Source: a virus
Taxonomy: Duplodnaviria > Heunggongvirae > Uroviricota > Caudoviricetes
DNA length: 8,178 nucleotides
Virus record (IMG/VR): IMGVR_UViG_2778261085_000010
Strand: one strand, 5' to 3'
Shown: piece by piece, positions 1 through 8,178 of the stretch
Numbering within the stretch: position 1 is the first letter of the stretch
Layout of the letters: each line of letters begins with the position of its first letter
Translations under genes and position numbers: made by a program
The notes under the pieces: model-generated
Told to the model about the DNA's origin: nothing
The model's input: the letters and a program-made list of their open reading frames with translations, nothing else
Database searches by the model: none

Positions 1-1
1 G

Positions 2-436
2 GAGCAATCACACCAACTGCAGCAGCCTGAAGCCGATTCCGCCATTCAGCGGGAAGCCGATCGGGTAGTCCCGGAAAACACCGGGCAGTCTGTGGGACGA
101 GTGGATTATCCGGATGTGTTCGAACAGGTCTGGCGGGAGTACCCGTTGCGTGCCGGGGCAAATCCGAAGAAATCCGCTTTCAGTGCCTGGAAGGCCAGAT
201 TACGCGAGGGGGTGCCACCAGAGGCCATGCTGGATGGCGTGAGGCGTTACGCAAGATACTTGGCGGCTACCGGGAAAACGGGAACGGAATTTGTTCAGCG
301 AGCGACGACGTTTTTTGGACCGGACCGGAATTTTGAGAACCCTTGGTTGCTCCCGGTAAGCGGCACGAACAACCAGCGTTGTGTGAATCATATTTCTGAA
401 CCGGATAACGAAATTCCGCCGGGCTTCAGGGGGTAA
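2..436 (+). CDS. Phage replication-module protein, C-terminal part (5'-partial; frame open to window start)
   Basis: Frame 2 is open from position 2 with no stop; the listed ORF start at 92 is a GTG with no convincing RBS, so the gene most likely begins upstream of the window. A polar Q/E/P-rich linker-like stretch precedes a conserved-looking C-terminal domain (WREYP...GANPKK...TFFGP). Its position directly upstream of a ~97-aa Ren-like ORF matches the lambda O/P-ren layout. Product call is from position and general resemblance only. Confidence 0.4.
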   Translation, partial: EQSHQLQQPEADSAIQREADRVVPENTGQSVGRVDYPDVFEQVWREYPLRAGANPKKSAFSAWKARLREGVPPEAMLDGVRRYARYLAATGKTGTEFVQRATTFFGPDRNFENPWLLPVSGTNNQRCVNHISEPDNEIPPGFRG

Positions 437-476
437 GTGTTAATTTCTGGTCATGAGGTAATTTTCAGGGGGGCTT

Positions 477-770
477 GTGGCAAAAGTTTTTACACAAGAA
501 GAGCGGGAAAAAATTAAAGGGCAGGTTCTTGAACTCGTACGCCAGAGTGGGCGCGAGACGTTACGACAACTGGAAGCTAAAACTGGGGCAACAAGATATC
601 TGATGAGCGTTCTGGCCAGAGAGCTGGTTGCCAGTGGCGATGTATACAACTCTGGTTACGGGTTATTCCCGTCTGAACAGGCGCGTAAGGACTGGCAAAA
701 TGCCCGTAAAAAGCTCTCAAGGGCAAAGCTGAAGAAACCATCTGCGGTTGATCCGGACCTTATCTGGTAA
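477..770 (+). CDS. Small basic protein, possibly Ren-like or winged-helix DNA-binding (97 aa)
   Basis: GTG start at 477 with a G-rich RBS (aggggggc) a few nt upstream. Size and position immediately after the replication gene resemble lambda ren. It has a basic C-terminal tail (ARKKLSRAKLKKP) and a TGAT-containing putative helix-turn-helix segment. No strong family recognition. Confidence 0.4.
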   Translation: MAKVFTQEEREKIKGQVLELVRQSGRETLRQLEAKTGATRYLMSVLARELVASGDVYNSGYGLFPSEQARKDWQNARKKLSRAKLKKPSAVDPDLIW

Positions 771-1045
771 TTACCTGATGGAGAAATACGTCGTTACGAC
801 AGGCGTCATAATATGATTTGTACTGAGTGTCGTAAAAGCGAAGTTATGCAGCGCATATTGTCGTTTTATCAGGGGGATGTTCGGCATTTATTGAAGTGAC
901 GAGATTAAAGTGCATTAGTTCAGATGCAAATTGACATTTTGTGGCACAGGGTAGAGCTAGCGTGGTTGTCCGCTTTGTGCCAACAGCGGACATTATAGAT
1001 GGTATATGTAAAAAGTGAACATGCGTAGATTGTATGATTTAGCCG

Positions 1046-1855
1046 TCACTTAATTATTGGATAACTCACACAAGTATGACCGTTGCTTATCGCATACATT
1101 TGGTTTCCCTTAAGATTTACAAATGGAAATGTCGTATACTCATAATTTATAGAGGTCATGTTAAATGTAAGGAATTTATCTTCAAGTTCTAATTTTGTAG
1201 AGTGGGCAGGGTATGTTCCTTCATTTTTCATTGTGATAATAAAACCGATAGGGAAAAAATGTAAAGCACAAATAAATGCCACATGTCCTTCGTTCATAAA
1301 TGCTACACTTTGAGCGGATATGTGCATTCTGTGTGGGTAAAACCAGTAGTAAATATCATGAGTTTCCTCAAAACTTGAATTTTTACCCAAAACATAATCC
1401 TTTAAAGGTGTATAGAAGGGGCTATCTACGGGTTCTTTTTTACAATCTTCAACTGAAGTTGCTGATAGCACGTGCCCAATCATAGCCTTAGTGAAAGATA
1501 TGCTATCAAAAGGTATTCTAATGAATGGATATACATTCATACCATTCATATATCGACTTAACTGTTCTTTAAAGGACTTTGTTACATTTTCAATTGCAAC
1601 ATCGAGCCCACCTAATACCTTATTGTTACAGTGGCTGCAAATGGTTCTGAAATAAGAGCCATTTTTAGCATTTAATGGTTTAACTGGTTCCTGAATACCA
1701 AAAAATTCGCTAACTGTTTTCTGCAAAACAGGGCCTAAGGTTATGGCGCACTTTGGAGGAACATGATCTTTTGTGAGCAAGCCATATTTCCCACAAATAT
1801 TGCAATAACCTTCAGTAATGCCATTGTGCTTCCATCGTTCACTAATTTTCGTCAT
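1046..1855 (-). CDS. HNH nuclease-domain protein with uncharacterised ~190-aa C-terminal domain (269 aa); AT-rich cargo gene
   Basis: Uninterrupted 810-nt ORF on the minus strand. Start ATG at 1853-1855 is preceded on the mRNA by GAGGGA plus a 7-nt spacer. The N-terminus carries a zinc-finger HNH pattern (CNICGKYGLLTKDHVPPKC ... NGSYFRTICSHCNNK). GC content is visibly lower than the flanking prophage genes and the gene is opposite in orientation to them. Confidence 0.7.
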   Translation of the reverse strand: MTKISERWKHNGITEGYCNICGKYGLLTKDHVPPKCAITLGPVLQKTVSEFFGIQEPVKPLNAKNGSYFRTICSHCNNKVLGGLDVAIENVTKSFKEQLSRYMNGMNVYPFIRIPFDSISFTKAMIGHVLSATSVEDCKKEPVDSPFYTPLKDYVLGKNSSFEETHDIYYWFYPHRMHISAQSVAFMNEGHVAFICALHFFPIGFIITMKNEGTYPAHSTKLELEDKFLTFNMTSINYEYTTFPFVNLKGNQMYAISNGHTCVSYPIIK

Positions 1856-2178
1856 TTTTATTCCCTCAGTAGCATAAGCTATCTATACGTTTTTTAATCC
1901 TATCAAAGATACAACTTAACGTCAGGAAAATGATAGTGTTTATCTAAGTAATACAATTAACTTCAACGCGTGACAGTCTGCTTTTCGCTCAAAGCGGACT
2001 AGAAGGTTAGCTTGCGTCGGACTTGGCGTATTTAAAGAAGTGCTGGTGGTGACTGGTTGTTGTGTTCCATTTCTACAGAACAAAATCACAGAAACTATAC
2101 CCAATAGTTGTATTGAATCACTGACGAGACAGCCTCATATTTATCAGGACTGGTGTACGTCCAATACAGGAGGTTGTG

Positions 2179-2268
2179 GTGCTGGTTCTCAAATGTGCGC
2201 TGGCTATTGCTGCTGTAATGGCAATTTATTGCCTTGCTGTTGTTCTTATGGATCGCCTTTCTGATTGA
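2179..2268 (+). CDS. Candidate small hydrophobic peptide (29 aa, MLVLKCALAIAAVMAIYCLAVVLMDRLSD)
   Basis: Perfect Shine-Dalgarno AGGAGG at 2168-2173, 5 nt upstream of GTG 2179. The peptide is a single predicted transmembrane helix. The overlapping listed ORF 2040..2264 is Cys-rich (CCCNGNLLPCCC) because it reads the Ala/Leu codons of this frame out of register. Confidence 0.3.
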   Translation: MLVLKCALAIAAVMAIYCLAVVLMDRLSD

Positions 2269-2317
2269 TTTTATATTGGCGAGGTGACGTGAGTTAAGTA
2301 GAATTGCTGCGGGTGCT

Positions 2318-2358
2318 TGAGGCTATCTGCCTCAGGCATGAACACCAAAGGCAGATAG
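2318..2358 (+). promoter_or_regulatory. hok mRNA leader with mutually exclusive stem-loops
   Basis: Local hairpin TGAGGC(2318-2323)/GCCTCA(2329-2334) overlaps an alternative long-range 9-bp pairing CTATCTGCC(2323-2331)/GGCAGATAG(2350-2358). Alternative folds of this kind are characteristic of hok-family mRNA leaders. Confidence 0.4.
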
Positions 2359-2479
2359 ATAAAAGCCCCAGTTAACATTACGCGTCCTGCAAGACGCTTA
2401 ACATTAATCTGAGGCTCAATCTATGAACGGCAAATCTAGGTTAGCCTCTTACGTGCCGAAAGGCAAGGAGAAGCAGGCT

Positions 2480-2635
2480 ATGAAGCAGCAAAAGGCGATG
2501 TTAATCGCCCTGATCGTCATCTGTTTAACCGTCATAGTGACGGCACTGGTAACGAGGAAAGACCTCTGCGAGGTACGAATCCGAACCGGCCAGACGGAGG
2601 TCGCTGTCTTCACAGCTTACGAACCTGAGGAGTAA
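2480..2635 (+). CDS. hokD: Hok-family type I toxin HokD/RelF (51 aa); possible in-frame upstream start at 2423
   Basis: Translation MKQQKAMLIALIVICLTVIVTALVTRKDLCEVRIRTGQTEVAVFTAYEPEE matches the HokD/RelF sequence as I recall it and carries the Hok signature (TM helix, LCEVRIR, AYE). AAGGAG RBS lies 9 nt upstream of ATG 2480. A second in-frame ATG at 2423 also has a GAGG RBS 8 nt upstream, which would give a 70-aa form. Confidence 0.85.
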   Translation: MKQQKAMLIALIVICLTVIVTALVTRKDLCEVRIRTGQTEVAVFTAYEPEE

Positions 2636-2642
2636 GAGACCA

Positions 2643-2664
2643 GGCGGGGGAGAAATCCCTCGCC
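2643..2664 (+). other. Stable 3' hairpin with GAAA tetraloop after hokD
   Basis: GGCGGGGGA-gaaa-TCCCTCGCC forms a 9-bp stem (one G-U pair) with a GNRA loop, 8 nt after the hokD stop. Consistent with hok mRNA 3' fold-back elements. Confidence 0.45.
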
Positions 2665-2703
2665 ACCTCTGATGTGTCAGGCATCCTCAACGCACCCGCA
2701 CTT

Positions 2704-2730
2704 AACCCGCTTCGGCGGGTTTTGTTTTTT
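2704..2730 (+). terminator. Rho-independent terminator downstream of hokD
   Basis: ACCCGC-ttcg-GCGGGT stem with UUCG loop, followed by TTTTGTTTTTT. Confidence 0.6.
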
Positions 2731-2802
2731 CCTGGCATTCTGGTTTACAATTCGCACGCCAGCCTGAACAACTGGCACCTGCTGCGCCAGCAGAGACAAC
2801 CG

Positions 2803-3081
2803 ATGGCGCACGATACCAAATTACACAATTCTGATAATTCAGCCGTCTTTGCCAGCAGGCACGGGCGGCGCTCTCACGCATTTAAATCTGATTGGTACCA
2901 GCATCCCCCATGTACTGAAGAACAAGCTGAATGGCTAATTCAGTGCTACCGCAGACACGGATACGAGATTAAGAAAGCCCTCAGCCTCGATTATCGTCAC
3001 TGGATAATCTCCGTCAGGCTTCCTTACTCCGAACGCCCACCGCGTCCGTCACGCACATTCCAGCAACGGATCTGGAGGTAA
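2803..3081 (+). CDS. rem: Rem-like small prophage protein (92 aa from ATG 2803)
   Basis: Listed ORF 2674..3081 starts with a GTG inside the hokD terminator, so the internal ATG at 2803 (weak GAGA RBS) is the more plausible start. Position between hokD and the DUF968 gene matches the K-12 Qin order hokD-rem-ydfU. Symbol assigned by synteny and recollection, not by alignment. Confidence 0.45.
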   Translation: MAHDTKLHNSDNSAVFASRHGRRSHAFKSDWYQHPPCTEEQAEWLIQCYRRHGYEIKKALSLDYRHWIISVRLPYSERPPRPSRTFQQRIWR

Positions 3082-3082
3082 C

Positions 3083-4138
3083 GTGCGGGTATTACTTCGA
3101 CCTGTTCCGGTACCGGAACTTGGGCTGGTGGTGCTAAAGCCGGGCCGTGAATCCATGCAGGTATTTCATAACCCTCGAGTGCTGGTGGAGCCGGAACCGA
3201 AAAGCATGCGCGGTCTGCCATCCGGGATTGTTCCTGCCGTTCGCCAGCCACAGATGGAAGATAAATCATTACTGCCATTTTTCAGCGACGAACGGGTGAT
3301 TCGTGCTGCTGGCGGCGCAGGCGCATTGTCTGACTGGCTCCTGCGTCATATTAAATCCTGCCAGTGGCCTCATGGTGACTACCATCACAGTGAAACCGTC
3401 ATTCACCGTTACGGTACCGGCGCAATGGTGTTGTGCTGGCACTGCGACAACCAGCTGCGTGATCAGACATCGGAATCACTCGGGCTACTTGCTCAACAAA
3501 ATCTGACAGCCTGGATGATTGACGTCATACGTCACGCAATAAGCGGTACACAGGAACGGGAATTATCGCTGGCTGAATTATCCTGGTGGGCGGTCCGCAA
3601 TCAGGTGGCGGACGCGCTACCGGAAGCGGTATTACGTCGTTCGCTGGGGTTGCGTGCGGAAAAAATCCGCCCAATGTACCGTGAAAGCGACATCGTGCCG
3701 GGAGAGCAGACCGCCACCAGCATACTGAAGCAGCGCACAAAAAATCTTGCACCGCTGCCTCACGCCCACCAGCAAAACCCGCCACAGGAAAAGACGGTGG
3801 TAAGCATTGCCGTTGATCCGGAGTCACCGGCTCAGTATCTCCAGCGCCAGAAACCACAACGGGAAGAGATGCCTGTATACACGCGCTGGGTAAAAACGCA
3901 GAAATGCATGACGTGCGGTAATCAGGCAGATGATCCGCATCACATCATTGGTCATGGACTGGGAGGGATGGGAACAAAGGCTGATGATTTGTTTGTTATT
4001 CCGCTGTGCCGTAAATGTCATAACGAACTGCACGCCGGGGTAAAAGATTTTGAAGAAAAACACGGCAGCCAGCTGTTGTTGCTGATTCGTTTTTTAATGC
4101 ACGCGAGAAATTCGGGTGTCCTGAAGTGGAAAGCATGA
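3083..4138 (+). CDS. ydfU: DUF968-family prophage protein (YdfU-like, 351 aa) with C-terminal HNH-like zinc motif
   Basis: GTG start at 3083, 4 nt after GGAGG (3074-3078) and 1 nt after the upstream stop. C-terminus reads CMTCGNQADDPHHIIGHGLGG...IPLCRKCHNELH. Length and synteny match K-12 YdfU (~349 aa) next to the Q gene. Confidence 0.75.
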   Translation: MRVLLRPVPVPELGLVVLKPGRESMQVFHNPRVLVEPEPKSMRGLPSGIVPAVRQPQMEDKSLLPFFSDERVIRAAGGAGALSDWLLRHIKSCQWPHGDYHHSETVIHRYGTGAMVLCWHCDNQLRDQTSESLGLLAQQNLTAWMIDVIRHAISGTQERELSLAELSWWAVRNQVADALPEAVLRRSLGLRAEKIRPMYRESDIVPGEQTATSILKQRTKNLAPLPHAHQQNPPQEKTVVSIAVDPESPAQYLQRQKPQREEMPVYTRWVKTQKCMTCGNQADDPHHIIGHGLGGMGTKADDLFVIPLCRKCHNELHAGVKDFEEKHGSQLLLLIRFLMHARNSGVLKWKA

Positions 4139-4516
4139 ATGACTGAACGCATAGAATTTGTTTTGCCTTACCCGCCGACGGTGAACACCTACTGGCGACG
4201 CCGTGGCTGCACATATTTTATATCGGAAGCCGGTAAGCGTTATCGCCGCGATGTGGCGCTTATCGTTCGCCAGCAGAGGCTGAAATTAAATCTGTCCGGA
4301 AGGCTGGCGATAACGGTTATCGCAGAGCCGCCGGATAAGCGCCGTCGTGATCTGGACAATATCCTGAAAGCGCCACTGGATGCGCTGACACATGCGGGGC
4401 TGCTTATCGACGACGAGCAGTTTGATGAAATTAATATTGTGCGCGGTCAGCCTGTTCTTGGTGGGCGACTGGGTGTGAAGATTTTCATAATCAGAGGTGG
4501 TAACGATGGCGCGTGA
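4139..4516 (+). CDS. rusA: RusA-family Holliday junction resolvase (125 aa)
   Basis: ATG at 4139 abuts the upstream TGA (ATGAATGA junction). Conserved RusA catalytic region PDKRRRDLDN...KAPLDALTHAGLLIDDEQ compares well with E. coli RusA (PDRRRRDLDN...KAAFDALTKAGFWLDDAQ) as recalled. Confidence 0.75.
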   Translation: MTERIEFVLPYPPTVNTYWRRRGCTYFISEAGKRYRRDVALIVRQQRLKLNLSGRLAITVIAEPPDKRRRDLDNILKAPLDALTHAGLLIDDEQFDEINIVRGQPVLGGRLGVKIFIIRGGNDGA

Positions 4517-4871
4517 CATTCCATTTGTTCTTGAACGATGGGGGGCATGGGCTGCGAGTGATAGCTCAGGAGTTGATTATTCCCCAATTGCTGCTGGATT
4601 TAAGGGGCTTTTACCGTGTACCAGTAAAATACGACAGGCATGCAGTGATGCGGATGGATTAATCATAGATGGCTGCCTAGCTCTTCTTAAGAAGAAAAAA
4701 CCATATGAGCACTCTCTGATTGTGGCTCATTACTTGTATGGTATATCGAAGCGGAAGATCGCAAAGGCACGTAAAAAAGATGAGAAACTAATACGTATTG
4801 AGATTAAGATGGCTGAAGGGTTTGTTGAAGGCTGTCTCTCAATGAGGGGTGTTAAACTTGAAATGGATTAG
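4506..4871 (+). CDS. Late-gene antitermination protein Q (121 aa)
   Basis: ATG 4506 with GAGGTGG RBS, overlapping the rusA 3' end by 11 nt. Motif LERWGAWAA...IAAGFKGLLP...LEMD is characteristic of the Q antiterminator family of lambdoid prophages (quuD/quuQ type). The listed start at 4497 is a GTG 9 nt earlier. Confidence 0.8.
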   Translation: MARDIPFVLERWGAWAASDSSGVDYSPIAAGFKGLLPCTSKIRQACSDADGLIIDGCLALLKKKKPYEHSLIVAHYLYGISKRKIAKARKKDEKLIRIEIKMAEGFVEGCLSMRGVKLEMD

Positions 4872-5352: not shown

Positions 5353-6369
5353 ATGTGTAGTATCAATAAACTTAGTGTTATTGTCCCGTTATATAATGCG
5401 GGCGATTATTTCTGCACCTGTATGGAATCTTTAATCACGCAAACGTGGACTGATCTGGAAATTATCATTATTAATGATGGTTCGACAGATAATTCTGTTG
5501 AGATAGCAAAGTATTACGCGGAAAACTATCCGCACGTTCGTTTGCTGCATCAGGCTAATGCTGGCGCATCGGTAGCGCGTAATCGTGGGATCGAGGCGGC
5601 GACGGGCAAATATGTCGCTTTTGTCGATGCTGATGATGAGGTCTATCCCACCATGTACGAAACGCTGATGACCATGGTGTTAGAGGATGACCTCGACGTG
5701 GCGCAGTGCAACGCTGACTGGTGTTTTCGTGAAACGGGAGAAACCTGGCAATCCATCCCCACCGATCGCCTTCGCTCAACCGGCGTATTAACTGGCCCGG
5801 ACTGGCTGCGGATGGGACTTTCTTCCCGCCGTTGGACTCACGTTGTCTGGATGGGCGTTTATCGTCGCGACGCTATTGTAAAGAATAATATTAAATTTAT
5901 TGCCGGATTACATCATCAGGATATTGTCTGGACAACTGAGTTTATGTTTAACGCGCAGCGTGCGCGATATACCGAGCAATCGTTATATAAATATTATCTG
6001 CATAATACGTCAGTGAGTCGGTTGAACAGACAAGGGAATAAAAACCTTAATTATCAACGTCACTATATTAAGATCACCCGCCTGCTGGAGAAATTAAATC
6101 GAAATTATGCCGACAAAATTACGATTTATCCTGAATTTCATCAGCAAATAACTTACGAAGCATTGCGTGTTTGCCATGCGGTACGCAAAGAGCCGGATAT
6201 TCTTACCCGCCAACGGATGATTGCCGAGATATTTGCTTCCGGTATGTATAAGCGTATGATTACGAATGTGCGCAGTATAAAGGTTGGTTATCAGGCGTTA
6301 CTGTGGTCTTTTCGCTTATGGAAATGGCGAAACAAAACACAGGTTATGCGTCCAATTGATTGGATATGA
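5353..6369 (+). CDS. Family 2 glycosyltransferase (GT2), soluble type (338 aa)
   Basis: N-terminal GT-A fold signatures: [53 protein letters not shown] (DxD). No C-terminal transmembrane pair of the GtrB kind is apparent. No obvious RBS upstream of ATG 5353. Confidence 0.8.
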
Positions 6370-6989
6370 TTTATATTTCTCATTTATCAAGATAATCATC
6401 CAGATGATCTTATTTGGTATTTTGCGCGACTTTTCAAATATCATAGGTTACAAAAAAGTTGTTGAATTGCTGTCTATCAACATGCGTTTGCTAACGAGAA
6501 AAGAATTTGTTGGTGTATTTTTTGAGAGGATAAAATACAACCGCTTTATGCCGATATGTTTCATAACAAAAGCGAAATCCGTATTAGCAGCAATCAAGAC
6601 GAACACACCAACGGGCTTCTCATGAGTAAGGATGGTCATATTCATACTGAGCTTAATGTTGACGGCTTTTGGCTTGTATTATTCGTAGTGTACAGCTCAA
6701 GTTGTCCAAGAGGAGCGAGAGTACCATGTCTGGCTTCTGTATGGAGTGTAACAATTAGTTAAGGGTAAGATAACTCTGTCAACCATTTCATATGGGAACT
6801 ATATAAATGCTTACGCGGTCCGCAAAAACAATTGTAACATGTTAAGAGTTATTACTTCGACTTCTTTCATACCCCCACCTCCGGGCTGTTTTTTGTGCCA
6901 AAGGGGAGGACGTTGAATGTGCTGGTTGGTGTGAATATGATGGTTTATTGCTAATTGCTTACTTCCCTGATGCGTGTGAAGTATTGGGT

Positions 6990-7514
6990 ATGACATCGAA
7001 ACAGATAGCGGAAGCCACCGGAAAGAAAAACATGGCTTCGCACTGGTTTGGTACCAGCCAGTGGCAGTTACCGAATGAGGCCGATTACAGTAAACTGCAG
7101 GTGCTGTTTGCACGTGTGGCGGCAGAAAAACATCAGCGCGGTGAACTGGAGCAGCCACACCATCAGCTGGTCAGCACATACAGCGAACTGAACCGGCAAT
7201 ATGTCAGCCTGCTGGAGGAATACAAATCACTGCGGCGTTATTTTTCCGTATCAGCTGCCGTTCCTTATACGGATGTCTGGACGCACAAGCCTGTGCAGTA
7301 TTATCCGGGTAAGCATCCCTGTGAAAAAACGGCGGATATGTTGCGTCAGATAATTACTGCCAGCAGCCGTCCTGGCGATTTGGTCGCAGATTTTTTTATG
7401 GGGTCGGGGTCGACAATAAAAGCGGCACTGTCGCTGGGACGCATGGCGATTGGCGTGGAACTGGAAGAGGAGCGTTTTAATCAGACGGTCAGAGAAATAA
7501 CGAAAGATTTTTAA
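6990..7514 (+). CDS. DNA methyltransferase C-terminal fragment (beta-class N6A/N4C type, AdoMet-binding half) fused to an unrelated HTH/coiled-coil N-terminus; probably truncated and inactive
   Basis: C-terminal ~85 aa (DVWTHKPVQYYPGKHPCEKTADMLRQIITASSRPGDLVADFFMGSGSTIKAALSLGRMAIGVE) matches the HPxxKP...FxGSGT motif-I region of beta-class methyltransferases such as YhdJ/CcrM. No DPPY catalytic motif is present anywhere in the frame, which is open only back to 6846. The listed start at 6948 is a TTG; ATG 6990 (MTSKQIAEATGKK...) is more plausible. Confidence 0.55.
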   Translation: MTSKQIAEATGKKNMASHWFGTSQWQLPNEADYSKLQVLFARVAAEKHQRGELEQPHHQLVSTYSELNRQYVSLLEEYKSLRRYFSVSAAVPYTDVWTHKPVQYYPGKHPCEKTADMLRQIITASSRPGDLVADFFMGSGSTIKAALSLGRMAIGVELEEERFNQTVREITKDF

Positions 7515-7616: not shown

Positions 7617-8064
7617 TCTTCCAGGTATGCAGGGTTTTATCTTTTATGTTAGCTGGTGGTTGCTGGTAACCTGAAATGGTTATGCTTGCTTACATAGTAA
7701 TCCGCGTAATTACGTAATGCAGCATGCCATACAGGTATCGTATAATGGCGATTACATAAGCCTACCAGGTTGATGATGCAGGTTAGATTCCTGCTACCTG
7801 CTACCTGCCCATGGTTGTTTATGCCAAGACTATGTCAGGCACTGACATTATATTATGTGGGGTGTTTTTTATGGTTACTTGCGCACCCTGTTCTGTAATG
7901 AGTGATATTCGTTGCGGTTCCAGTGCCATTTTTTTTACAACATCGGAATGGTGCATTATTAGCAAATATTTTTTCTGCTTCAGGCATTATTCCGATGTTG
8001 TAAACATCGACAAAACAAAACCCAGATTAGTCACATACTAAGTCAAGCCCGGACATCATTCCTT

Positions 8065-8089: not shown

Positions 8090-8104
8090 ATTGTGCACAG
8101 AAAA

Positions 8105-8123
8105 CCCCCAGCTAGGCTGGGGG
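8105..8123 (-). terminator. Candidate terminator for a minus-strand gene entering from beyond the window end
   Basis: CCCCCAGC-tag-GCTGGGGG 8-bp stem; on the minus strand it is followed by TTTTCTGTG (short U-tract). Confidence 0.4.
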
Positions 8124-8178
8124 TTCCGGAAAGCTTTCAGCTTTGAGCCAGTTATTAAAACCCCTTTTGATTTGTTAA

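What the first reader, a model, noticed from the sequence alone, without database searches (positions are those of the whole stretch)
1046..1855. AT-rich, reverse-oriented HNH-domain gene of unknown function inserted in the nin-region position next to hokD
Seen in sequence: a 269-aa ORF on the opposite strand to every surrounding prophage gene, with clearly lower GC than its neighbours, its own RBS, and an N-terminal CxxC...DH...N...CxxCN HNH motif. The remaining ~190 aa match no family I recognise. Established knowledge: HNH is a nuclease fold used by restriction-like defence proteins and by free-standing homing endonucleases, and counter-oriented low-GC genes in prophage backbones are typical lysogen-expressed cargo. 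Inference: a prophage-encoded single-gene nuclease, either anti-phage/superinfection exclusion or a selfish homing endonuclease. An imperfect inverted repeat GTCCGCT(968-974)/AGCGGAC(985-991) lies 55-78 nt beyond its stop and may mark the transcript 3' end, although no U-tract follows.
Basis: partly seen in the sequence, partly recalled or inferred. Interest (0 to 1): 0.75.

Follow-up and report, generated by a model that had tools for sequence, protein, structure and literature searches.

The report
Palindrome-bounded prophage cassette encoding HNH nuclease
A real, uncharacterised zinc-HNH nuclease gene rides in a 1-kb swap-in cassette bounded by two 24-bp palindromes that also flank dozens of other cargo genes in lambda-like and P2-like prophages and plasmids; it is most likely a one-gene anti-phage defence, but nobody has tested it.

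Summary
ORF 1046-1855 (-) is a real 269-aa gene: GC 0.35 against 0.51 in the flanks, a GAGGG Shine-Dalgarno, and the only large minus-strand gene here. The HNH call is supported at family level: C18/C21/C73/C76, D30-H31 and N77 are invariant or nearly so, and 78 of 133 diverse relatives hit Pfam HNH_5. Residues 82-269 match nothing in Pfam, NCBIfam, PADLOC, PDB or BFVD.

The family is large (1,783 clusters at 50% identity), about 270 aa and stand-alone. I found no conserved neighbour across 66 contexts. Members occupy recognised defence hotspots (P4 int-psu, P2 Z/fun), other prophages and IncF plasmids, and lie near Shedu, Septu, CBASS and similar genes.

Together they bound a 1,032-bp cassette found at 98-99.6% identity in several different backbones. 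The same pair flanks at least 20 other cargos. Sequence junctions map inside the palindromes, which points to site-directed cassette exchange.

Best reading: a lysogen-expressed, single-gene anti-phage or anti-MGE nuclease carried on an exchangeable cassette (about 0.55). A homing endonuclease is unlikely. Function is untested. Interest 0.68.

The parts
1046..1855 (-). CDS, 269 aa (identical to WP_000161640.1, annotated 'hypothetical protein' or 'chaperonin'); member of PHROG 21495, unknown function
1613..1816 (-). codes residues 14-81: Cys4-zinc HNH/EndoVII-type beta-beta-alpha-metal motif. Strand 24-32 ends in D30-H31, a low-confidence insertion of about 35 aa follows, then strand 67-73 and helix 74-80 with C73, C76 and N77
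   Evidence: invariant residues; AF2 secondary structure; HNH_5 hit in 78 of 133 relatives, best E 1.9e-6, and Endonuclease_7 in 7; the window protein alone reaches only E 0.29
1049..1612 (-). codes residues 82-269: alpha/beta domain with no recognisable family. Invariant or near-invariant D85, G127, H128, W171, P202, P244. It models as one compact body with the HNH part (pTM 0.87)
1863..1867 (-). Shine-Dalgarno GAGGG, 7 nt upstream of the ATG
   Evidence: read from the sequence
1897..1925 (-). weak candidate sigma-70 promoter, CTGACG-17 nt-TAGGAT (8 of 12), inside the segment shared by all cassette copies. Inference only; it falls below the scan threshold
   Evidence: read; not reported
968..991 (.). 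left boundary palindrome ('L site') GTCCGCTTT-GTGCCA-ACAGCGGAC, 9-6-9 layout. The outer arm follows the backbone and the inner arm follows the cargo
1976..1999 (.). right boundary palindrome ('R site') GTCTGCTTT-TCGCTC-AAAGCGGAC. The inner arm follows the cargo and the outer arm follows the backbone
968..1999 (.). the exchangeable cassette, 1,032 bp, GC 0.356. It recurs at 98-99.6% identity (about 92-94% in L036, Kluyvera and Erwinia), with homology ending at roughly 959-976 and 1998-2008, in P2-like prophages, two other prophage backbones, Kluyvera, Erwinia and IncF plasmids
477..770 (+). backbone gene to the left of the slot (DUF977; shortened to 97 aa here)
2311..2635 (+). backbone to the right of the slot: sok RNA (2311-2485) and mok/hokD (2423-2635)

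Best explanation
The ORF encodes a stand-alone nuclease. Its N-terminal Cys4-zinc HNH (EndoVII/Cas9-type D-H...N) active site is built into one compact fold with a new C-terminal alpha/beta domain. The gene is not phage backbone. It is the payload of a 1,032-bp AT-rich cassette (968-1999) with its own ribosome-binding site and probably its own weak promoter. The cassette sits against the direction of prophage transcription, between the replication module (DUF977) and hok/sok.

The cassette is delimited by two heterotypic 24-bp palindromes, with centres GTGCCA on the left and TCGCTC on the right. The same pair delimits many other cargos in lambdoid and P2-like prophages. Cassettes appear to be swapped by recombination inside these sites (L with L, R with R).

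Inferred, not shown: the protein is made in the lysogen and protects the cell and the prophage by cutting invading phage or MGE DNA. The C-terminal domain would supply target discrimination (for example modified DNA, as in Type IV restriction) or hold the nuclease inactive until an infection cue.

Shown here: the gene is real, the HNH motif is conserved, it stands alone, it occupies MGE and defence hotspots, and the cassette architecture and junction positions are as described.

Inferred: nuclease activity, the defence role, expression in the lysogen, and the identity of the recombination machinery.
For: The gene is real and conserved. The HNH motif holds up: C18/C21/C73/C76, D30, H31 and N77 are invariant or nearly so; the model shows strand-insertion-strand-helix; HNH_5 hits 78 of 133 relatives; and PADLOC hits are only weak PtuB/HNH-type matches.

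The gene is a single-gene module. In 106 loci falling into 66 contexts, no neighbour cluster within +-3 ORFs occurs in more than 4 contexts.

Hotspot residence is broad. A relative is the sole gene between int and psu of a P4-like satellite. The gene lies between tail-fibre and sheath genes of P2-like pro147. Other relatives sit in an integrase/AlpA/primase island with ParE/RelB, at the end of an inovirus, in a serine-recombinase island, and in a Plesiomonas cassette-like array with HEPN_AbiU2, SduA_C and PLD. It appears in 51 IMG/VR loci and, at 99% identity or more, on 48 plasmids.

Neighbours include SduA (3e-302), PtuA/PtuB, bSEFIR, a CBASS cyclase, DrmC, PD-T4-2_B, PDC-S31 and AbiTii.

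The same lambdoid slot holds other cargos, including PADLOC candidate PDC-S15 (E 1e-98) and a GNAT plus HTH pair.

Cassette evidence. Half-site segregation gives 49/53 and 35/36 against 26/36 and 23/53. Junctions fall inside the palindrome in about 97% of 310 pairwise comparisons.
Against: There is no experimental evidence of defence for any family member in the literature I could search. Brenes & Laub 2025 could not be read. No PADLOC or NCBIfam model matches.

The window protein alone does not reach Pfam's HNH threshold, and even the best family member is probably below the gathering score. The catalytic geometry could not be inspected because no model coordinates were available.

The enrichment for defence neighbours has no matched control. 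Some cargos in the same slots are not defence genes, such as the BetT transporter with DUF2254 and MarR with oxidoreductases, so being in the slot does not by itself mean defence. No promoter passes the consensus scan.
Confidence: 0.55

Rival explanations
1. A selfish free-standing HNH homing endonuclease. It would cut a site in cassette-less or differently loaded alleles, and the cassette would be copied in by recombinational repair.
For: HNH domains are typical of free-standing phage homing endonucleases, and many have the HNH at the N-terminus followed by a DNA-binding region (established knowledge). The gene moves as a discrete unit between unrelated replicons.
Against: The same L/R palindromes border at least 20 other cargos that lack any nuclease, so mobility does not depend on this gene. 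More distant relatives (85% identity or less) lack the palindromes and sit in 60 or more unrelated contexts, including P4 int-psu and chromosomal islands. No NUMOD, IENR1 or HTH module was detected. The gene runs opposite to the phage operons, with AT-rich moron-like composition.
Confidence: 0.1
2. A prophage, satellite or plasmid toxin or competition factor that is not a classical anti-phage system. Examples: an addiction or stress-activated nuclease, an anti-plasmid or anti-satellite factor, or an effector that helps the element against co-resident elements.
For: It is carried by every kind of MGE, including conjugative IncF plasmids next to IS26/mph(A), and by TA-rich islands. In the window it lies next to hok/sok.
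Against: There is no conserved antitoxin or immunity neighbour. A free nuclease toxin without an inhibitor would be hard to maintain in 134 complete E. coli genomes and on more than 1,000 contigs.
Confidence: 0.15
3. A catalytically inactive zinc-finger DNA-binding or regulatory protein, in line with the database names 'metal-binding protein' and 'chaperonin'.
For: The Cys4 treble-clef is also a plain zinc finger. The window protein's own Pfam HNH score is below threshold, with a comparable weak zf-TFIIIC hit.
Against: The catalytic dyad D30-H31 and N77 are as conserved as the cysteines across about 20%-identity relatives. HNH_5 and Endonuclease_7 are the only recurrent families. Nothing supports 'chaperonin'.
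Confidence: 0.08
4. The nuclease that services the palindrome system itself, nicking or cutting L/R sites to start cassette exchange.
For: It co-locates with the sites, and HNH enzymes can nick palindromic or cruciform DNA (T4 endonuclease VII; established knowledge).
Against: Only a minority of slot-bearing genomes carry it: 134 of 1,636 E. coli genomes that match the region. Most family members have no such palindromes nearby.
Confidence: 0.04

Closest known systems
McrA (E. coli K-12 e14 prophage), a Type IV modification-dependent HNH restriction enzyme
   Same: A single prophage-borne gene of about 270 aa, an HNH nuclease plus a second domain, with no methyltransferase partner, and lysogen-expressed cargo (my knowledge of McrA; single-gene status here).
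   Different: The domain order is reversed, with the HNH at the N-terminus here. There is no sequence or fold match to McrA or to any SRA, EVE or other reader domain. Dependence on DNA modification is pure conjecture.
T4 endonuclease VII / Pfam HNH_5 type Cys4-zinc beta-beta-alpha-metal nucleases (also PtuB of Septu)
   Same: The CxxC...DH...CxxC-N arrangement. HNH_5 hits 78 of 133 relatives, Endonuclease_7 hits 7, and there are weak PtuB hits.
   Different: A low-confidence insertion of about 35 aa splits the hairpin. The last metal ligand is Asn, not His. The 190-aa C-terminal domain has no counterpart, and there is no PtuA-like ATPase partner.
Cargo of the P2 (old/tin, Z/fun) and P4 (int-psu) defence hotspots (Rousset et al. 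2022, PMC9122126; NAR 2026, PMC13586616)
   Same: The same physical locations and the same pattern of a low-GC, single-system payload that varies between otherwise similar elements.
   Different: This family is not among the systems named or tested in those papers' main text. It is also present in a lambdoid slot and on IncF plasmids.
Site-bounded gene cassettes: integron cassettes (attC), Acinetobacter pdif modules (XerC/D sites), T4-type PeSL cassettes, and Rci/sfx shufflons
   Same: Discrete cargo units are delimited by short conserved (palindromic) sites. Arrays of units exist (L-BetT/DUF2254-L-HNH-R). Junctions lie inside the site. The L centre GTGCCAA is identical to the 7-bp core of Rci sfx sites (PMC4176322).
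   Different: The sites are 24 bp in a 9-6-9 layout, not 57-141-bp attC or 28-bp dif-like sites. There are two heterotypic centres, so L x R excision is not expected. The arms are unlike the sfx right arm TCCGGTNNNTGG. No dedicated recombinase was identified. Comparisons other than sfx rest on my own knowledge.

Membership tests
HNH / beta-beta-alpha-metal nuclease superfamily (Pfam HNH_5, Endonuclease_7) | Conserved general-base His (here in an Asp-His dyad) at the end of the first strand | tested here: met
   H31 is invariant and D30 at least 90% conserved in 133 relatives. They lie at the end of predicted strand 24-32.
HNH / beta-beta-alpha-metal nuclease superfamily (Pfam HNH_5, Endonuclease_7) | Metal-ligand Asn or His at the start of the alpha helix | tested here: met
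   N77 is invariant and lies in predicted helix 74-80, directly after C76.
HNH / beta-beta-alpha-metal nuclease superfamily (Pfam HNH_5, Endonuclease_7) | Two CxxC pairs forming the structural zinc site | tested here: met
   C21, C73 and C76 are invariant and C18 at least 90% conserved. Their spatial clustering could not be checked because no coordinates were available.
HNH / beta-beta-alpha-metal nuclease superfamily (Pfam HNH_5, Endonuclease_7) | Significant match to a curated family profile | tested here: inconclusive
   The window protein scores E 0.29, 11.6 bits, against a cut-off of 27.5. Across the family, 78 of 133 hit HNH_5 at E<=0.1, best 1.9e-6. The hits are consistent but sub-threshold.
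HNH / beta-beta-alpha-metal nuclease superfamily (Pfam HNH_5, Endonuclease_7) | Metal-dependent nucleic-acid cleavage | not testable with these tools
   Needs biochemistry.
Known or candidate anti-phage systems (PADLOC-DB 2.0.0) | Match to a system HMM | tested here: not met
   The window protein has no hits. Among 133 relatives there are only scattered weak HNH-type hits (PtuB in 4, PDC-M01B in 3).
Anti-phage defence genes in general | Location in recognised defence hotspots or next to defence genes | tested here: met
   P4 int-psu and P2 Z/fun. Neighbours include SduA, PtuAB, bSEFIR, a CBASS cyclase, DrmC, PD-T4-2_B, PDC-S31 and AbiTii. There is no matched control.
Anti-phage defence genes in general | Reduces phage plaquing when expressed | not testable with these tools
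   No experiment was found in the searchable literature.
Type IV (modification-dependent) restriction enzymes, McrA-like | A recognisable modified-base reader domain (SRA, EVE/PUA, McrB-N, etc.) joined to the nuclease | tested here: not met
Free-standing HNH homing endonucleases | Sits at a fixed position between conserved genes of related genomes, with homologous flanks in endonuclease-less alleles | tested here: not met
   66 distinct contexts. Flanks are unrelated beyond the cassette.
Free-standing HNH homing endonucleases | Homing-type DNA-binding modules (NUMOD, IENR1, HTH) | tested here: not met
   None detected in the protein or in 133 relatives.
Phage 'moron' (Juhala et al. 2000 sense) | An extra gene between backbone genes, with deviant composition and its own promoter and terminator | tested here: inconclusive
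   Position and composition are met. Only a weak promoter candidate exists, and there is no intrinsic terminator.
Integron gene cassette | One attC site (57-141 bp, with extrahelical bases) per cassette, and an IntI/attI platform | tested here: not met
   The borders are two different 24-bp palindromes. No integron integrase is annotated in the loci examined.
Rci/sfx shufflon sites | A 7-bp core GTGCCAA plus a conserved 12-bp right arm TCCGGTNNNTGG | tested here: not met
   The core is identical at the L site, but the arm is AGCGGAC-type. The R site has a different centre.

The most novel reading that the evidence does not exclude
Two linked readings remain open. (1) The 24-bp L (GTGCCA) and R (TCGCTC) palindromes are the recombination sites of an unrecognised, integron-like cassette-exchange system. 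It would work like RMCE, using heterotypic sites, and would move defence and other cargo genes between lambdoid phages, P2-like phages and plasmids. That would explain how phage defence hotspots are reloaded without flanking gene homology. (2) The 269-aa protein founds a new, widespread single-gene defence family in which an HNH nuclease is controlled by a previously unseen C-terminal sensor fold.
Probability: 0.3. Interest if true: 0.88.

Novelty: new variant of a known kind. Interest (0 to 1): 0.68.

Why it matters
If the protein is a defence nuclease, it adds a compact single-gene system with a new regulatory or recognition domain. The family has about 1,800 clusters at 50% identity, no curated model, and a misleading "chaperonin" label in public databases. 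The identical protein is already spreading on IncF multidrug-resistance plasmids of E. coli, Shigella and Klebsiella. That matters for phage therapy.

The cassette borders may matter more. The most recent survey of P2/P4 hotspots says the route by which defence genes move between unrelated elements is unknown (PMC13586616). Here the junctions map, almost base-precisely, into two short palindromes shared by lambdoid and P2-like phages. That turns the question into an experiment: which recombinase, which strand, which centre. It also gives a simple sequence handle (L...R) for harvesting unknown cargo genes from prophages.

Tried and rejected
**Fold and sequence searches with no result**
- Foldseek of a good AF2 model (pLDDT 84.8, pTM 0.87) found nothing below E 0.1 against PDB or BFVD.
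- Single-sequence and profile searches of PDB sequences found nothing.
- NCBIfam and PADLOC gave no match.

**Literature with no result**
- The accession appears in no paper and not in the DefensePredictor supplements.
- The P2/P4 hotspot papers name no matching system and no palindromes.
- Brenes & Laub 2025 and Odegrip 2006 could not be opened.
- Nilsson et al. 2004 (Mol Biol Evol 21:1) is not held. Its title suggests it may already propose site-specific recombination for P2 variable loci.

**Ideas rejected**
- The 968-991 repeat as an intrinsic terminator: no U-tract, not found by the scan, and fold z = 0.08.
- The palindromes as a structured RNA: no Rfam family.
- My own first impression of compensatory stem changes: Watson-Crick pairing at the variable positions equals what independent assortment of the arms predicts.
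- A conserved partner, antitoxin or methylase gene: none.
- Palindromes as a general feature of the protein family: they occur only around copies at 89% identity or more.
- The "chaperonin" annotation: no support anywhere.
- One literature search was badly framed and gave nothing.
Full report

Yes. The minus-strand ORF 1046-1855 starts at ATG and encodes 269 aa. Its GC is 0.352 (GC3 0.30), against 0.510 to its left and 0.518 to its right. A GAGGG Shine-Dalgarno sits 7 nt before the start.

The window is a lambdoid E. coli prophage. It is 96.9% identical over 1-4473 to a prophage at tRNA-Ser/mtfA in strain UMNK88. There, every annotated neighbour is on the other strand: DUF977, hokD, DUF968, rusA and Q.

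The gene is no chance ORF. It has 93 homologues in the word-indexed search, all about 270 aa. An exhaustive profile search finds 1,783 cluster representatives at E<=1e-3 and 347 at E<=1e-30, nearly all 255-300 aa. The exact protein is seen on at least 1,000 contigs. It matches PHROG 21495, function unknown.

**2. The HNH call**

The window protein alone gives only a sub-threshold HNH_5 hit, E 0.29 over residues 18-35. The family makes the case.
- In 133 relatives down to about 20% identity, C21, H31, C73, C76 and N77 are invariant. C18, D30, P33, P34 and D85 are at least 90% conserved.
- HNH_5 is hit by 78 of the 133 (best E 1.9e-6) and Endonuclease_7 by 7. No other family recurs.
- In different members the hits fall on one half of the motif or the other: profile positions 1-21 at CxxC...DH, and 33-53 at CxxCN.
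- The AlphaFold model (39-sequence alignment, pLDDT 84.8, pTM 0.87) gives strand 24-32 ending in D30-H31, a low-confidence insertion at about 35-65, strand 67-73, and helix 74-80 carrying C76-N77.

This is a beta-beta-alpha-metal motif split by an insertion. It has a Cys4 zinc site and the D-H...N catalytic pattern of T4 endonuclease VII and the Cas9 HNH domain (that comparison is from my own knowledge). I could not inspect coordinates, so the geometry is inferred.

**3. The rest of the protein**

Residues 82-269 model as helices followed by a sheet of five or more strands. Conserved positions are D85, G127, H128, W171, P202 and P244. This region matches nothing in:
- Pfam, NCBIfam or PADLOC;
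- PDB sequences, by single sequence or by profile;
- PDB or viral (BFVD) structures by Foldseek.

**4. Where the family lives**

From 106 loci I derived 66 distinct gene contexts. No neighbour cluster within +-3 ORFs recurs in more than 4 of them. The gene therefore works alone, or with host factors. The contexts are overwhelmingly mobile or variable DNA.

| Context | Evidence |
|---|---|
| Lambdoid slot, as in the window (15 loci) | |
| Only gene between int and psu of a P4-like satellite in Serratia fonticola; Rousset et al. showed this locus to be an anti-phage hotspot (PMC9122126) | |
| Integrase/AlpA/primase island beside ParE/RelB in Pectobacterium | |
| Distal end of a Vibrio inovirus, beside DUF2726 | |
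| Serine-recombinase island in Pseudomonas | |
| Beside a terminase in an Enterobacter prophage | |
| Cassette-like array with HEPN_AbiU2, SduA_C, PLD and Fic in Plesiomonas | |
| 51 IMG/VR viral contigs, often at the contig edge | |
| 60 plasmids, 48 with the protein at 99% identity or more, mostly conjugative | |

I scanned 148 neighbours (+-2 ORFs) from 62 contexts. They include Shedu SduA (3e-302), Septu PtuA/PtuB, bSEFIR, a CBASS cyclase, DrmC, PD-T4-2_B, three PDC-S31 proteins, AbiTii and three DUF2971 proteins, plus integrases and resolvases. That is well above the share of defence genes in ordinary genomes (1-2%, from my own knowledge). I had no matched control.

**5. The slot and the palindromes**

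Related lambdoid phages align to the window up to about 882-995 and again from 1976 or 2291. In between they carry something else:
- a GNAT acetyltransferase plus an HTH regulator in phage Evi;
- a reverse-oriented 444-aa protein in Tritos that is PADLOC candidate PDC-S15, E 1e-98;
- ea22-type genes in others.

- left, GTCCGCTTT-GTGCCA-ACAGCGGAC;
- right, GTCTGCTTT-TCGCTC-AAAGCGGAC.

Evi and Tritos have the same pair around their own cargos.

The segment 968-1999/2000 recurs at 98-99.6% nucleotide identity in other backbones, with homology ending at the outer edges of the two palindromes. These are P2-like L020 and L027, and L031. It recurs at about 92-94% in L036, Kluyvera L069 and Erwinia L070. 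An older 94% copy in pro147 keeps only the left site.

In the fetched DNA, left sites are followed by right-type sites at 984 nt (this gene) or at 1.1-6.7 kb, with at least 20 different and mostly low-GC cargos. Arrays occur, such as L-BetT/DUF2254-L-HNH-R. Most of these cargos are unknown. Some look like defence genes: PDC-S15, an HNH-ATPase resembling PDC-M68A, HEPN/RES-NTD1 and DUF2971. Some do not: a BCCT transporter, and MarR with oxidoreductases.

**6. Where the junctions are**

Each half of a palindrome travels with the DNA next to it.

| Site | Arm | Same within clusters of its own flank | Same within clusters of the opposite flank |
|---|---|---|---|
| Left | 5' arm | 49/53 (upstream) | 26/36 (downstream) |
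| Left | 3' arm | 35/36 (downstream, cargo) | 23/53 (upstream) |
| Right | 5' arm | 8/9 (upstream, cargo) | 6/20 (downstream) |
| Right | 3' arm | 20/20 (downstream) | 5/9 (upstream) |

The pairwise breakpoints agree. Positions 1-24 are the palindrome.
- Left sites: of 206 window pairs with the same left and different right flanks, 201 first diverge at positions 17-31, and none before 17.
- Left sites: of 35 pairs with the same right and different left flanks, 32 stop diverging at -6 to 8, and none after 8.
- Right sites: 17 of 17 at 21-26, and 51 of 52 at -4 to 9.

So the exchange points lie inside the palindrome. Where the arms differ, they lie between positions 9 and 16.

Watson-Crick pairing at the variable stem positions is no more frequent than independent assortment of the arms predicts. 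There is therefore no sign of a selected hairpin. The sites behave like two protein half-sites around a 6-7-bp crossover region. Only two centres are common: GTGCCA in 78 and TCGCTC in 26 of 115 sites, counted on either strand.

Because the two centres differ, L x R excision is not expected. L x L plus R x R exchange between two replicons would swap cargos without ever emptying the slot. This fits the report that P2 hotspots are never found empty (PMC13586616).

A caveat: my patterns fixed the outer six bases, and the centre as well. Very short-homology recombination is not formally excluded.

I identified no recombinase. The left centre GTGCCAA equals the 7-bp core of the Rci shufflon sites (PMC4176322), but the arms differ, so this is only a lead. 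The hotspot papers I could read do not mention these sites. They call the exchange mechanism open. Nilsson et al. 2004, whose title speaks of site-specific recombination in P2-like phages, could not be read and may have priority.

**7. Not a terminator, not an RNA**

The promoter/terminator scan finds no terminator at 968-991. The region folds no better than shuffles, z = 0.08. Rfam finds only sok (2311-2485), a tRNA and STnc490 in the window.

**8. Mechanism, with steps marked**

Shown:
- a conserved stand-alone protein with an HNH catalytic signature;
- carried as cargo by at least six kinds of mobile element;
- resident in established defence hotspots;
- housed here in an exchangeable cassette.

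Inferred:
- it is expressed in the lysogen, given the counter-orientation, its own SD, and a weak CTGACG-17-TAGGAT promoter candidate at 1897-1925;
- it cleaves invading nucleic acid;
- its C-terminal domain either recognises a feature of foreign DNA, like Type IV enzymes such as the prophage-borne McrA, or keeps the nuclease off until infection.

I put defence at about 0.55. Within that, direct restriction and triggered (abortive) nuclease activity are roughly equal.

Rivals:
- another MGE-competition or toxin role, 0.15;
- homing endonuclease, 0.10;
- non-catalytic zinc protein, 0.08;
- a nuclease serving the palindromes, 0.04.

**9. Novelty and score**

The protein is an unvalidated candidate for a new single-gene defence family. 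It is built on a known nuclease fold with an unknown second domain, so I rate it a new variant of a known kind. Many such candidates exist, and on its own it would rate about 0.5-0.55.

Its priority is uncertain and its mechanism is unproven. Overall interest is 0.68.

Noticed in passing
window 968-991 and 1976-1999; also L003 2469-2492/3887-3910, L004 1468-1491/3269-3292, L020, L027, L031, L231: Two related 24-bp palindromes (centres GTGCCA and TCGCTC) bracket this gene and at least 20 other cargos in lambdoid and P2-like prophages. Sequence junctions map inside the palindromes and the two arms assort independently. This looks like a site-directed cassette-exchange system.
   Followed up: yes
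L231 (Shigella sonnei IncF plasmid NZ_CP099771.1) 5857-10561; L232 (Klebsiella plasmid NZ_CP023918.1): The 100%-identical protein is on at least 48 mostly conjugative plasmids of E. coli, Shigella, Klebsiella and Enterobacter. It is part of the array L-BetT-DUF2254-L-HNH-R, which abuts IS26 and the mph(A) macrolide-resistance module. In the Klebsiella plasmid a 200-aa tyrosine recombinase and a 476-aa unknown protein lie between the HNH gene and DUF2254.
   Followed up: partly
window 977-983 (centre of the left palindrome): GTGCCAA is identical to the 7-bp crossover core of Rci shufflon sfx sites (PMC4176322). The arms are unrelated. This may be coincidence or a hint at an Rci-like tyrosine recombinase.
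   Followed up: partly
window 477-770: The DUF977 gene is 97 aa here but 140 aa in UMNK88 and in IMG/VR copies. It is probably truncated by a mutation in this window.
   Followed up: no
window 3083-4138: The backbone DUF968 (YdfU-like) protein also carries an HNH-type domain (HNHc_6, E 1e-7). The window therefore encodes two unrelated HNH proteins.
   Followed up: no
window 5353-6369: A low-GC family-2 glycosyltransferase lies downstream of Q, the usual position for lambdoid cargo. It is 91% identical at the DNA level to stretches of two 'Campylobacter phage' GenBank records (A18a, A11a), which is odd and may reflect contamination or transfer.
   Followed up: no
window 6948-7514: This ORF matches only the C-terminal part of the N6_N4_Mtase DNA methylase profile (positions 124-219 of 221). 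It is either a fragment or a gene with a mis-called start.
   Followed up: no
window 4473-4871: Homology to the UMNK88 prophage stops at 4473. The Q antiterminator here (124 aa, complete Phage_antitermQ match) is a different allele from the 222-aa Q of UMNK88, so there is another module boundary.
   Followed up: no
window 7731-7802 and 8103-8178: A tRNA-Gly (anticodon ACC, by ARAGORN) and the 5' part of the STnc490 Hfq-binding sRNA, which is cut off by the end of the window.
   Followed up: no
L013 (Plesiomonas shigelloides CP027852.1): A homologue lies in a run of small, evenly spaced genes with HEPN_AbiU2, SduA_C, PLD-like, Fic and NUDIX proteins and an IS110. This may be a chromosomal integron-like or defence cassette array.
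   Followed up: no
public annotation of the family: Many members are named 'chaperonin' in NCBI and UniRef, with no detectable basis. The label appears to be a propagated annotation error.
   Followed up: partly
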